From a virus (lineage: Duplodnaviria; Caudoviricetes), in IMG/VR virus record IMGVR_UViG_3300027589_000005, positions 1-54,250 of that record: a stretch of DNA of 54,250 nt; one strand, 5' to 3'. Positions 36,409 through 37,879 of this stretch are shown piece after piece (the stretch's first letter is position 1; each line of letters begins with the position of its first letter). Made by a program: the position numbers and the translations under genes. The notes beneath the pieces were generated by a model, which saw only the letters and a program-made list of their open reading frames with translations, had not been told where the DNA came from and searched no databases.

Positions 36409-36474
36409 GGGACTGGCTCTTGCCGACGCTCTGAAGGGTTCAGAGTTTGTTGGGCGGAACTTGAAGCTGGTCCC
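36409..36474 (+). promoter_or_regulatory. Structured 5' leader, motif B copy 1
   Basis: GGGACTGGCT/AGCTGGTCCC closing helix; CTTGCCGAC-hairpin-GTTGGGCGGAAC core. Confidence 0.7.
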
Positions 36475-36486
36475 ACGGAGTTCATC

Positions 36487-36906
36487 ATGGAGCGTTCTTT
36501 TCTCAAAGGCTTGATCAACGCCTCTTCCCCTTCTGAGGTCCAGGAGCTCGTGAAGCTCCTGCCGCCGCCTTCGGGCGGCCCCCACGGGTGGATGAGGGAG
36601 TGGGCGCGCTGCGCCCGCGCCCTCCGGGACAAGGACCTCCAGGCCGCCGTCGCGGCGGCGAAGGAGGAAAAAGCGGCAGCCTCGGCGGCCGCTTTGGCCG
36701 CCAGGCAGGCGGAACCCGTTTGGGGTGTCGTCCCCGAATACGGGGCATACTCGTTTTCCAACGAGTTGTACGGCTTCAAGGCCGTTGAGGGCAAAGGTTC
36801 TCTCACTTACGAGGAGGCCGTTGTCGAAGCCGAGAAAAAGCGTTTCGCGAACTCCCGCCGCATCAAAGCGGCCGCAGAGTACTGGGACGCCTATCTCAAC
36901 GGCTGA
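36487..36906 (+). CDS. Hypothetical protein
   Basis: GGAG RBS after leader B; followed by a terminator. Confidence 0.75.
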   Translation: MERSFLKGLINASSPSEVQELVKLLPPPSGGPHGWMREWARCARALRDKDLQAAVAAAKEEKAAASAAALAARQAEPVWGVVPEYGAYSFSNELYGFKAVEGKGSLTYEEAVVEAEKKRFANSRRIKAAAEYWDAYLNG

Positions 36907-37037
36907 TCCCAAGGCCCCCACCTTCGGGTGGGGGCCTTCCCTTCCCTATACATATTGCTATGCCCGTAGGGGAGGAATGGTGGCGCGACCCTTTCGAGTG
37001 TTGTTCTGCAATGTCCCCCTTCGGGGGTTAGTTCTAT

Positions 37038-37195
37038 GGAGGGGTCCCAGGTGACTACCTCCATGAGCCCTCGTCACTGCAGCAGTGATGGAAGGTCCCA
37101 CCAAACAAGCCAAGACCCTTCCCTTTGATGTCGCCGTCACGGCATCAAGGGGGAGGAAGGAAGAGCTCAGCCTGACGGGGCTGGGCTCTTCGTTT
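37038..37195 (+). ncRNA. Candidate small structured RNA
   Basis: Runs from a promoter motif to a terminator; hairpin-rich; no credible ORF. Confidence 0.5.
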
Positions 37196-37284
37196 GCTAA
37201 TAAATATCCAACTCAACACAAAGTTGGCGCCACCGTGTTCCTTCCTAAAGGCACATTATCTTCCGCTTCGCGGTTAGATTCATT

Positions 37285-37351
37285 GAGAGGTAAATCCTTG
37301 CCGACACTCGTATGGTACGAGTAGTTGGGCGGAACCTGTGATTATCCTCTC
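37285..37351 (+). promoter_or_regulatory. Structured 5' leader, motif B copy 2
   Basis: GAGAGGTAAATC/GATTATCCTCTC closing helix; same core as copy 1. Confidence 0.7.
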
Positions 37352-37362
37352 TTGGAGTTCGA

Positions 37363-37776
37363 ATGGACCGTTTCCAGATGGCTGCCGATGAGCTCTCCCT
37401 CCTCAACCGTATTAAGGCTTTGGAGGAAGAGCTCCGTCATCTCAAAGGACAACAAATCCACGAAGGGCTCTTCGGAGCCCCCATGAAGTGGATTGAGGTC
37501 CACTCCAATCAAATGGGAGGGTATTTCCTGGTGAAGGAGAGATTCCCTCTCTACCAGACCCCGAAGGTCGTGGCGCGCGCGAGTGGTATGGATGTCGCGG
37601 TGATTCATCACCGGGAGCCAGATAGGGTGGAACAAATCCACCTGACTGCTCTAAAGGCACGGAAGGCTTATGAAGCCTTCCGTGGCGAGGGAGCCCAGCC
37701 CCTCCATGTGGCGTGGGGCGTTGCCGCCCATGCCCCGTGGACTCCCGAGCTTGAGACCATGCTTCGAGCCATCTGA
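37363..37776 (+). CDS. Hypothetical protein
   Basis: GGAG RBS; 137 aa. Confidence 0.75.
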   Translation: MDRFQMAADELSLLNRIKALEEELRHLKGQQIHEGLFGAPMKWIEVHSNQMGGYFLVKERFPLYQTPKVVARASGMDVAVIHHREPDRVEQIHLTALKARKAYEAFRGEGAQPLHVAWGVAAHAPWTPELETMLRAI

Positions 37777-37814
37777 CCATCTGACCACTCGACCCCTCCG
37801 GGGGTCATTTCTTT

Positions 37815-37879
37815 GAGGCAAACCCTTGCTGGCTGTCTGAAGGGTTCAGATTAGCTGGGCGGACTTGCGGTTTGTCCTT
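37815..37879 (+). promoter_or_regulatory. Structured 5' leader, motif B copy 3
   Basis: GCAAACC/GGTTTGT closing helix; CTTGCTGGC-hairpin-GCTGGGCGGAC. Confidence 0.7.

What the first reader, a model, noticed from the sequence alone, without database searches (positions are those of the whole stretch)
36409..37879. Second leader motif B, three copies before unrelated genes
Seen: 36409-36474, 37285-37351 and 37815-37879 each start at the predicted +1 and have different but complementary closing helices. They share CTTG-CYGRC-[variable hairpin]-GYTGG-GCGGA(A)CYTG and end 2-3 nt before a GGAG RBS. The inner helix changes CCGAC/GTTGG to CTGGC/GCTGG. Inference: a conserved asymmetric internal loop that binds a protein or ligand and co-regulates three genes.
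Basis: partly seen in the sequence, partly recalled or inferred. Interest (0 to 1): 0.72.

Follow-up and report, generated by a model that had tools for sequence, protein, structure and literature searches.

The report
Shared folded leader before three genes
Three neighbouring early genes of an uncultured freshwater phage each begin with the same folded 65-67-base RNA leader; it matches no RNA family in Rfam, and what it does is so far only inferred.

Summary
The core pattern occurs 3 times in the window against 0 expected, at the stated coordinates. Each copy folds into a closing helix P1, an asymmetric loop (CUUG opposite GCGGA(A)CYUG), a 5-bp P2 with an invariant G.U, and a variable hairpin P3.

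- **Conservation:** helices vary with compensating changes while the loops stay fixed. Core columns are variable in 6 of 25 cases, stem columns in 26 of 34, p = 8e-5. There are 7 double-change pairs against 3.0 in shuffles.
- **Strand:** the fold is 4-10 kcal/mol better on the + strand, so it is an RNA feature.
- **Position:** each copy starts on the last G of a conserved hairpin-TTCNNTG gene-start signal. The copies end 2, 2 and 1 nt before GGAG.
- **Downstream genes:** the three genes are unrelated ORFans. In sister strains these genes are swapped while the leader is kept.
- **Distribution:** no Rfam family matches. No copy was found outside this phage lineage.

Function is inferred. Most likely the leader is a protein-recognised operator that sets translation or stability of three mRNAs. 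Rivals are an RNase III-type processing site, a plain 5' stabiliser and a riboswitch. No transcript ends and no binding protein are known. I rate it a new member of a known kind, of moderate interest.

The parts
36409..36474 (+). Motif B copy 1. P1 36409-36418/36465-36474; J5 CUUG 36419-36422; P2 36423-36427/36449-36453; P3 hairpin 36428-36448; J3 GCGGAACUUGA 36454-36464.
   Evidence: Identical in strain L108. 36413 C>U, which turns C-G into U.G, is seen in runs X2, X3 and X5.
37285..37351 (+). Motif B copy 2. P1 37285-37296/37340-37351, with a 2x2 mismatch; J5 37297-37300; P2 37301-37305/37324-37328; P3 37306-37323; J3 GCGGAACCUGU 37329-37339.
   Evidence: The L108 variant has two changes in the 3' arm, U.U to U.G and U-A to U.G, and folds at -26.9 against -25.2 kcal/mol.
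37815..37879 (+). Motif B copy 3. P1 37815-37824/37869-37879, with one bulged U; J5 37825-37828; P2 CUGGC/GCUGG 37829-37833/37854-37858; P3 37834-37853; J3 GCGGACUUGC 37859-37868.
36403..36409 (+). TTCAATG word of the gene-start signal before copy 1. Its last G is the first base of P1. It is preceded by a short GC hairpin and the word ACTAATGTTGTAC.
   Evidence: The same arrangement is seen in the distant relative L112.
37263..37285 (+). UUCG-loop hairpin (37263-37273) plus TTCATTG (37279-37285) before copy 2.
37791..37815 (+). Hairpin (37791-37806) plus TTCTTTG (37809-37815) between the stop codon of gene 2 and copy 3. The scan scores it as terminator-like.
36477..36906 (+). GGAG (36477-36480) and gene 1 (ATG at 36487, 139 aa, ORFan).
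   Evidence: In X2, and probably in X3, the gene body is replaced directly after the ATG.
37354..37776 (+). GGAG (37354-37357) and gene 2 (ATG at 37363, 137 aa, ORFan).
   Evidence: A 33%-identical homologue in L112 has a plain hairpin leader.
37881..38151 (+). GGAG (37881-37884) and gene 3 (GTG at 37891, 86 aa).
   Evidence: Homologues are found in L108 (43% identity) and L113 (39% identity).

Best explanation
Motif B is a cis-acting structured RNA module of 65-67 nt. It sits in the 5' leader of three consecutive early ORFan genes, between the phage's hairpin-TTCNNTG gene-start signal and the Shine-Dalgarno sequence.

Proposed mechanism:
- Two stable coaxial helix blocks form a rigid scaffold: P1 below, P2 plus P3 above.
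- The scaffold pairs the very first base after the start signal.
- It displays an invariant asymmetric loop (CUUG opposite GCGGA(A)CYUG) next to a P2 helix with an invariant central G.U pair.
- The loop lies 23-34 nt upstream of the start codon.
- A trans-acting protein, either a phage regulator or a host RNA-binding protein, recognises this surface.
- Binding sets translation, and with it the stability, of the three mRNAs together, in the manner of a translational operator.

Shown: the fold, its covariation, its strand specificity, its fixed position relative to the start signal and the SD, and its retention when the downstream gene is exchanged.

Inferred: that the element is transcribed from that first base, that a protein binds it, and the direction of the effect.
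For: - Real and repeated: 3 matches against 0 expected. The covariance model gives 71-88 bits for the copies against at most 15 bits elsewhere in the window.
- Helices kept by compensation: on P1 plus P2, 93.3% of cells pair against 86.2 +/- 2.4 in shuffles (0/500 reach it). Seven pairs carry double changes against 3.0 +/- 1.2 (0/500). Slid controls give 27-57%. P3 of copy 2 has a different sequence but pairs at 7/7 positions.
- Selection on the loop, not only on pairing: variable columns are 6 of 25 in J5+P2+J3 against 26 of 34 in P1+P3, Fisher p = 8e-5. The divergent P3 lies between the two conserved halves, so a single conversion tract does not explain the pattern.
- RNA of the + strand: the three copies hold 4, 1 and 4 G.U pairs. 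The reverse complement folds 4.4-10.5 kcal/mol worse.
- Strain variants respect the fold: all three helix substitutions that I saw give G.U pairs (36413 C>U; two in L108).
- Module independent of cargo: L108 keeps the copy 2 leader but replaces window 37360-38155. X2 keeps the copy 1 leader and ATG but replaces 36490-36932 with 343 other letters.
- Position: J3 lies at -34 to -23 from the start codon (sequence). That this falls inside the region a 30S subunit covers is recalled knowledge.
- One stable conformer: the folds are -24 to -31 kcal/mol with no conserved alternative pairing. This fits a binding platform rather than a switch.
Against: - No binding protein is identified. The early genes have no informative Pfam or PHROG match.
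- No RNase III, CsrA or Com-type family is found in G000, G002 or G001. The record is only about 36% of a genome.
- There are no transcript 5' ends, so the start of the RNA is a model.
- Only three paralogues plus near-identical strains exist, and no independent lineage carries the motif.
- The gene 2 homologue in L112 is expressed from a plain hairpin leader, so this gene family does not need the motif.
- The hairpin-TTCNNTG signal also scores as a terminator. Copy 3 may therefore be intercistronic, which suits a processing site as well.
- Predicted SD accessibility differs between copies.
Confidence: 0.37

Rival explanations
1. RNase III-type processing signal. The lower stem (P1) and the upper stem (P2+P3) stack into about two and a half turns of double-stranded RNA, interrupted by an internal loop. 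The host RNase III would cut once in the loop. This would separate the mRNA from upstream RNA, leaving a protective 3' hairpin upstream and a short leader before the SD, as at the T7 early sites.
For: - Dimensions fit: 10-12 bp below the loop and 12-13 bp between the loop and the hairpin tip.
- The paper passages I read state three points: substrates typically have two helical turns, internal loops limit cleavage to one strand, and 11 bp between cut and loop is the minimum (PMC1540722).
- Copy 3 follows the stop codon of gene 2 by 39 nt, after a terminator-like hairpin. It could therefore be intercistronic.
- Repeated, related processing sites before unrelated early genes are known in T7 (recalled).
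Against: - By the E. coli rules in the same paper, G-C or C-G pairs in the proximal box inhibit binding or cleavage (abstract). Here the two P2 pairs next to the loop are C-G, C-G in copies 1 and 2 and C-G, U.G in copy 3. The host enzyme is unknown, so this is weak evidence.
- RNase III needs no fixed loop sequence, so 12 of 15 invariant loop columns and an invariant G.U are not explained.
- Copies 1 and 2 sit behind full terminator-plus-start-signal units.
- No phage RNase III was found.
Confidence: 0.22
2. Plain 5'-terminal stabiliser or insulator. The leader only serves to pair the first transcribed bases, which protects against 5'-end-dependent decay, and to keep the SD context constant for swappable genes. 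The conserved loop would be inherited from a recent duplication.
For: - P1 starts on the last base of the start signal in all three copies.
- A first-stage note reports 5' helices for other leaders of this phage (e1-6297865, not checked by me).
- Leaders are kept while the cargo genes are exchanged.
Against: - If the core were merely young, the stems should be equally unchanged. They are not: 26 of 34 stem columns vary against 6 of 25 core columns.
- Many other genes of the region have the SD directly after the signal with no leader at all. A 5' helix is therefore not a general need.
Confidence: 0.15
3. DNA-level element or recombination cassette. The conserved words would be operator half-sites or a promoter-proximal element for the phage polymerase. 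Alternatively they persist because they mediate cassette exchange, like PeSL cassettes of T4-type phages.
For: - Exchange end points lie at the leader/gene boundary: 37359/37360 in L108 and 36489/36490 in X2.
- PeSL cassettes do mediate such shuffling (PMC2839356, abstract).
Against: - Pairing depends on G.U, so the complement folds worse.
- Covariation in three helices has no meaning for duplex DNA.
- Recombination needs identity, not compensated helices.
- Serving as a recombination boundary is compatible with, and probably secondary to, an RNA role.
Confidence: 0.1
4. Riboswitch: the internal loop would bind a small molecule.
For: The stems covary around conserved junction nucleotides, and P1 ends next to the SD.
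Against: - There is no expression platform or alternative fold.
- No Rfam match was found even at E<=10 on the copies alone.
- The motif is confined to one phage lineage.
- The downstream genes are unrelated ORFans with no metabolic link.
Confidence: 0.05

Closest known systems
Early RNase III processing signals of phage T7 (R0.3 to R1.3; architecture recalled, general rules from PMC1540722 passages)
   Same: Repeated hairpins have a lower stem, an asymmetric internal loop and an upper stem of 11 bp or more. They are placed just upstream of the ribosome-binding sites of unrelated early genes.
   Different: The 3' side of the loop is longer here (10-11 nt). The loop sequence and a G.U pair are invariant. 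C-G pairs flank the loop on the P2 side. No cleavage data exist and the host is unknown.
Phage translational operators (T4 RegA and gp32 operators, Mu Com-mom; recalled)
   Same: One RNA site recurs in the ribosome-binding region of several early mRNAs, or controls the SD from a nearby hairpin.
   Different: No cognate protein was found here. The RegA sites are unstructured and AU-rich, whereas this element is a rigid GC-rich scaffold. No Com-type family is present in the available DNA.
PeSL regulatory cassettes of T4-type phages (PMC2839356, abstract read)
   Same: Short conserved regulatory units flank non-essential ORFans in a variable region and mark the end points of insertions, deletions and replacements between close strains.
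   Different: PeSLs are sigma70-type promoters plus terminator stem-loops. No sigma70-type promoter is found here. The conserved part here is an RNA leader with covarying helices.
5'-terminal stem-loop mRNA stabilisers (ompA-type leaders; recalled)
   Same: A helix begins at or next to the first transcribed base.
   Different: Stabilisers need no conserved internal loop.
Kink-turn motif (recalled consensus)
   Same: The 3' strand reads helix, three bases, then G-A-A, as on the bulged strand of a kink-turn.
   Different: The opposite strand has U-G where the tandem sheared G.A pairs need G-A. The defining feature is not met.

Membership tests
Any Rfam 15 family | Covariance-model score at or near the family's gathering score | tested here: not met
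   The whole window at gathering threshold gives only the tmRNA. The stretch 35500-38500 at E<=10 gives nothing on the copies. Copy 1 alone gives 0 matches; copy 2 alone gives one 10-bit match at E = 9.1.
T7-type RNase III processing signal | About two turns of coaxial double-stranded RNA, with 11 bp or more between the internal loop and the hairpin tip | tested here: met
   P1 has 10-12 bp. P2+P3 have 12-13 bp with a 1-3 nt bulge. The rule comes from PMC1540722.
T7-type RNase III processing signal | No inhibitory G-C or C-G pairs in the box next to the scissile bond (E. coli rule) | tested here: inconclusive
   The two P2 pairs next to the loop are C-G, C-G in copies 1 and 2 and C-G, U.G in copy 3. 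The rule is for the E. coli enzyme, and the host here is unknown.
T7-type RNase III processing signal | Cleavage at a defined phosphodiester in vivo or in vitro | not testable with these tools
   No reads or contigs of the RNA run cover the motif.
Translational operator | Site lies in the ribosome-binding region of each regulated mRNA | tested here: met
   J3 lies at -34 to -23 and the P1 3' arm reaches to 1-2 nt before GGAG. The extent of the 30S footprint is recalled.
Translational operator | A cognate RNA-binding protein | tested here: inconclusive
   None is recognisable among the window's proteins. The record is about 36% complete.
Riboswitch | Aptamer conserved across lineages, plus an expression platform with alternative pairing | tested here: not met
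   No copies exist outside the lineage. Only a single stable fold is predicted.
PeSL-type regulatory cassette | Repeated cassette that flanks ORFans and marks the end points of strain differences | tested here: met
   Searches show the repeats. Searches show the end points at 37359/37360 and 36489/36490.
PeSL-type regulatory cassette | Strong sigma70-type promoter in the cassette | tested here: not met
   0 promoter-like sites in 35500-38700, against 0.9 +/- 0.9 in shuffles.
Kink-turn | Three-base bulge followed by tandem sheared G.A / A.G pairs | tested here: not met
   By inspection: the non-bulged strand has U-G next to P2. The consensus is recalled.

The most novel reading that the evidence does not exclude
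Motif B would be the operator of a new phage RNA regulon. An unknown RNA-binding factor would read a G.U-containing helix plus the GCGGAA bulge. That factor could be a product of the unsequenced two thirds of the genome or the phage's own two-barrel polymerase. Through this site it would switch a swappable array of early ORFan (host-takeover or anti-defence) cassettes on or off together. The same leader would double as the landing pad at which new cassettes are recombined in, so any incoming gene is placed under the regulon at once.
Probability: 0.25. Interest if true: 0.62.

Novelty: new member of a known kind. Interest (0 to 1): 0.45.

Why it matters
Phages with their own single-chain two-barrel RNA polymerase are barely studied, and nothing is known of their post-transcriptional control. 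This element offers a compact, well-defined RNA with a clear mutational design: a bulge, a G.U pair and three compensated helices. It appears to place unrelated, fast-swapping early genes under one control.

If a binding protein or a cleavage is found, it would give a new RNA-protein pair and a handle on how such phages time their early genes. It would also illustrate how conserved leaders serve as junctions for cassette exchange. If it proves to be only a stabiliser, it is an ordinary leader hairpin.

Tried and rejected
- **Rfam:** no family fits.
- **IMG/VR pattern scan:** it gave 102 single-match loci. I searched 100 of the 102 with model R1; the best was 18.4 bits at E = 0.34, so these are chance. 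L104 and L105 were not searched.
- **GTDB genome pattern scan:** it gave 72 loci. The best R1 hit, 34.0 bits in L166, lies antisense inside a 388-aa ORF on the other strand. The second, 27.5 bits in L164, has many unpaired positions and I did not inspect its context. I treat both as chance.
- **Relatives through the polymerase gene:** R1 finds the motif only in the 99%-identical strain L108. It finds nothing in G001 (147 kb), G002, L111 or L112.
- **Relatives through genes 1-3:** only L113 turned up, an unrelated high-GC phage contig with a gene 3 homologue and no motif.
- **Extending the genome to the right:** nothing was found.
- **Small-RNA partner:** the complement of the loop gives 10 near-matches against 5.09 +/- 2.51 expected (5 of 100 shuffles reach 10). 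Two of the ten are the motif itself. A 7-base match at the start of the upstream ORF-free unit is not kept in copies 2 and 3 (inspection). Rejected.
- **Kink-turn reading:** rejected by inspection.
- **SD accessibility by partition function:** values were 0.89, 0.05 and 0.41. The copy 1 four-base window was one base off. The result is inconsistent and I draw no conclusion.
- **Protein folds:** gene 1 gave pLDDT 51 and is unusable. Gene 2 gave pLDDT 78.6, but Foldseek against PDB found nothing at E<=0.001.
- **Phage-encoded RNase III, CsrA or Com:** none in G000, G002 or G001. The genome is incomplete, so this says little.
- **RNA run X20:** no contig covers the motif, so there is no evidence either way on its transcription.
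- **Other windows of this scan:** none holds look-alikes.
- **Literature:** one search on YonO, promoter, hairpin, leader and phage gave nothing relevant in the 10 rows listed of 713. I therefore make no claim about print beyond the Rfam result. Supplements of the papers were not seen.
- **Polymerase against PDB:** a sequence search of the 1430-aa polymerase found none.
- **ARAGORN:** it finds no tmRNA or tRNA, although Rfam finds a tmRNA.
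Full report
**Context.** The window is a whole IMG/VR virus record of 54,250 bases, linear and about 36% complete by CheckV.
- Bases 1-24,000 carry minus-strand structural genes at about 45% G+C, among them a terminase and a capsid protein.
- From 24,000 on, short plus-strand genes at 55-58% G+C follow. They are nearly all without family.
- These genes surround a 1430-aa protein with an invariant DDDGD loop in 5 of 5 aligned homologues. An earlier follow-up on a 147-kb relative named P23-45 gp64 as closest known (e1-5883372). I read passages of that paper (PMC10770324), which show that such phages use their own promoter motifs.
- The lineage occurs in river and lake metagenomes. 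Long, 95-99%-alike contigs are found in three lake-water runs from three studies.

**The observation.** The core pattern occurs three times, all on the + strand, against none in 100 shuffles. A covariance model scores the copies at 71-88 bits and nothing else in the window above 15.1 bits.

Anatomy:
- P1 has 10-12 bp.
- The 5' loop strand is CUUG.
- P2 has 5 bp with a central G.U in every copy.
- P3 is a 7-8 bp hairpin with a 3-base loop.
- The 3' loop strand is GCGGA(A)CYUG plus one variable base.
- The 3' arm of P1 follows.

P1 starts on the last G of a TTCNNTG word in all three copies. It ends 2, 2 and 1 nt before GGAG, which lies 5-6 nt before the start codon. The three proteins are unrelated, with BLASTP E >= 3.7.

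**Is it a selected RNA structure?**
- P1 of copy 1 shares little sequence with P1 of copies 2 and 3, yet pairs at 10/10 positions. Copies 2 and 3 differ by compensated changes.
- P2 shows one A-U to G-C change. P3 of copy 2 has a different sequence and pairs at 7/7 positions.
- On the model-made alignment of 4 distinct rows, counting P1 and P2 only, 93.3% of cells pair against 86.2 +/- 2.4 in shuffles (0/500). Seven pairs have changes on both sides against 3.0 +/- 1.2 (0/500). Slid registers give 27-57%. With four related rows, and a structure derived from them, this is supportive and not a proof.
- Conservation is inverted relative to pairing. Of the loop and P2 columns, 6 of 25 vary; of the P1 and P3 stem columns, 26 of 34 vary (p = 8e-5). 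The divergent P3 sits between the two conserved halves.
- The fold needs G.U pairs. The reverse complement is 4.4-10.5 kcal/mol less stable. This points to the transcribed + strand rather than to duplex DNA.

**Strain variants.**
- L108 is a 99%-identical contig from another sample. Its copy 1 is identical. Its copy 2 has two changes, both in the 3' arm of P1, and both create U.G pairs.
- 36413 C>U, which turns C-G into U.G, is fixed in the contigs of X2, X3 and X5. That call displays only the best-supported differences, so I cannot say these are all the differences.
- The cargo changes while the leader stays. In L108, window 37360-38155 (gene 2, copy 3 and gene 3) is replaced by 427 nt encoding one 139-aa relative of gene 3. 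The break lies 3 nt before the start codon.
- In X2, one 67,898-nt contig joins 36489 to 36933 with 343 other letters. The gene 1 body is thus replaced directly after its ATG, and X3 has a loose end at the same base.
- The leader is therefore a module that does not depend on what it leads, and it marks the end points of exchange.

**Distribution.**
- No Rfam family matches.
- Pattern hits in IMG/VR and GTDB genomes are chance.
- The 147-kb relative G001 (polymerase at 32% identity) has no copy and no homologue of gene 1 or gene 2.
- L112 (polymerase at 29% identity) is instructive. It keeps the upstream architecture: a TATAAATA word, a GGTGGCGCGCC palindrome, ACTAATGTTGTAC, a hairpin and GGGTTCGACG. 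This stands in front of a 33%-identical gene 2 homologue, but the leader there is a simple hairpin without the motif B core.
- Motif B is thus a lineage-restricted addition between the start signal and the SD. Other genes of the window have GGAGG directly after the same signal.

**Mechanism.** The element is one very stable fold with no conserved alternative. It lies at -34 to -23 from the start codon, and it shows fixed loop bases and a fixed G.U. That is the profile of a recognition platform.
- **Best reading (0.37):** a protein-bound operator that sets translation and stability of three early mRNAs.
- **RNase III-type site (0.22):** the dimensions match what the RNase III literature requires (PMC1540722), and copy 3 sits behind a terminator-like hairpin. 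Against it, the C-G pairs that flank the loop on the P2 side are inhibitory by the E. coli rules, and the enzyme needs no fixed loop sequence.
- **Bare 5' stabiliser (0.15):** this explains P1 but not the loop.
- **DNA-level or recombination-only reading (0.10):** this conflicts with the G.U dependence. Serving as an exchange junction, as PeSL cassettes do in T4-type phages (PMC2839356, abstract), is probably a secondary consequence.
- **Riboswitch (0.05):** there is no platform, no breadth of distribution and no metabolic context.
- **Open points:** no binder was identified, and no RNA data cover the motif.

**Verdict.** This is a new, uncatalogued member of the class of structured regulatory leader RNAs, confined to one uncultured freshwater phage lineage. 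Interest is moderate.

Noticed in passing
window 36040-36213 (within the ORF-free unit of about 35983-36305): A freshwater metatranscriptome run (X20) holds one 174-nt contig, at depth 27.8, identical to this stretch. None of its contigs lies on the flanking genes. The ORF-free structured unit just upstream of copy 1 may be an abundant stable RNA. DNA carry-over in the RNA library is not excluded.
   Followed up: partly
window 36490-36932, 37360-38155 and 37149-38156: This is a hot spot of cassette exchange between close strains. Gene 1 is replaced in X2 and probably X3. Gene 2, copy 3 and gene 3 are replaced by one gene in L108. An X5 contig joins 37149 to 38156.
   Followed up: partly
L112 3460-3700 compared with window 36306-36409: The upstream architecture is conserved between phages whose polymerases are only 29% identical: a TATAAATA word, a GGTGGCGCGCC palindrome, ACTAATGTTGTAC, a short hairpin and GGGTTCRAYG. 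It is better conserved than the leaders or the genes.
   Followed up: partly
window 35500-38700: The scan finds no sigma70-type promoter (0 found, 0.9 expected) but 12 terminator-like hairpins against 3.9 +/- 2.1. Several of these are the hairpin-TTCNNTG 'start signals'. Whether that signal starts, ends or processes RNA is open.
   Followed up: no
window 50298-50698: Rfam finds a full-length tmRNA (82.7 bits, E = 1.3e-30), but ARAGORN reports no tmRNA or tRNA in the window. The tmRNA is preceded by the same hairpin-TTCTTTG signal at 50078-50106.
   Followed up: no
L112 3100-3460: This ORF-free, GC-rich structured stretch downstream of the relative's polymerase gene contains a word that reminded me of RNase P RNA (recalled). 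Rfam finds nothing there at E<=1.
   Followed up: partly
L113 3014-3279: The gene 3 family (conserved words IFFDS and AFGPTG) also occurs in an unrelated high-GC viral contig. There it sits in a compact operon without any leader.
   Followed up: partly
window 37039-37195: A unit of about 155 nt, running from start signal to terminator with no ORF, sits between gene 1 and copy 2. Its first bases, GGAGG, can pair with CCTCC downstream.
   Followed up: no
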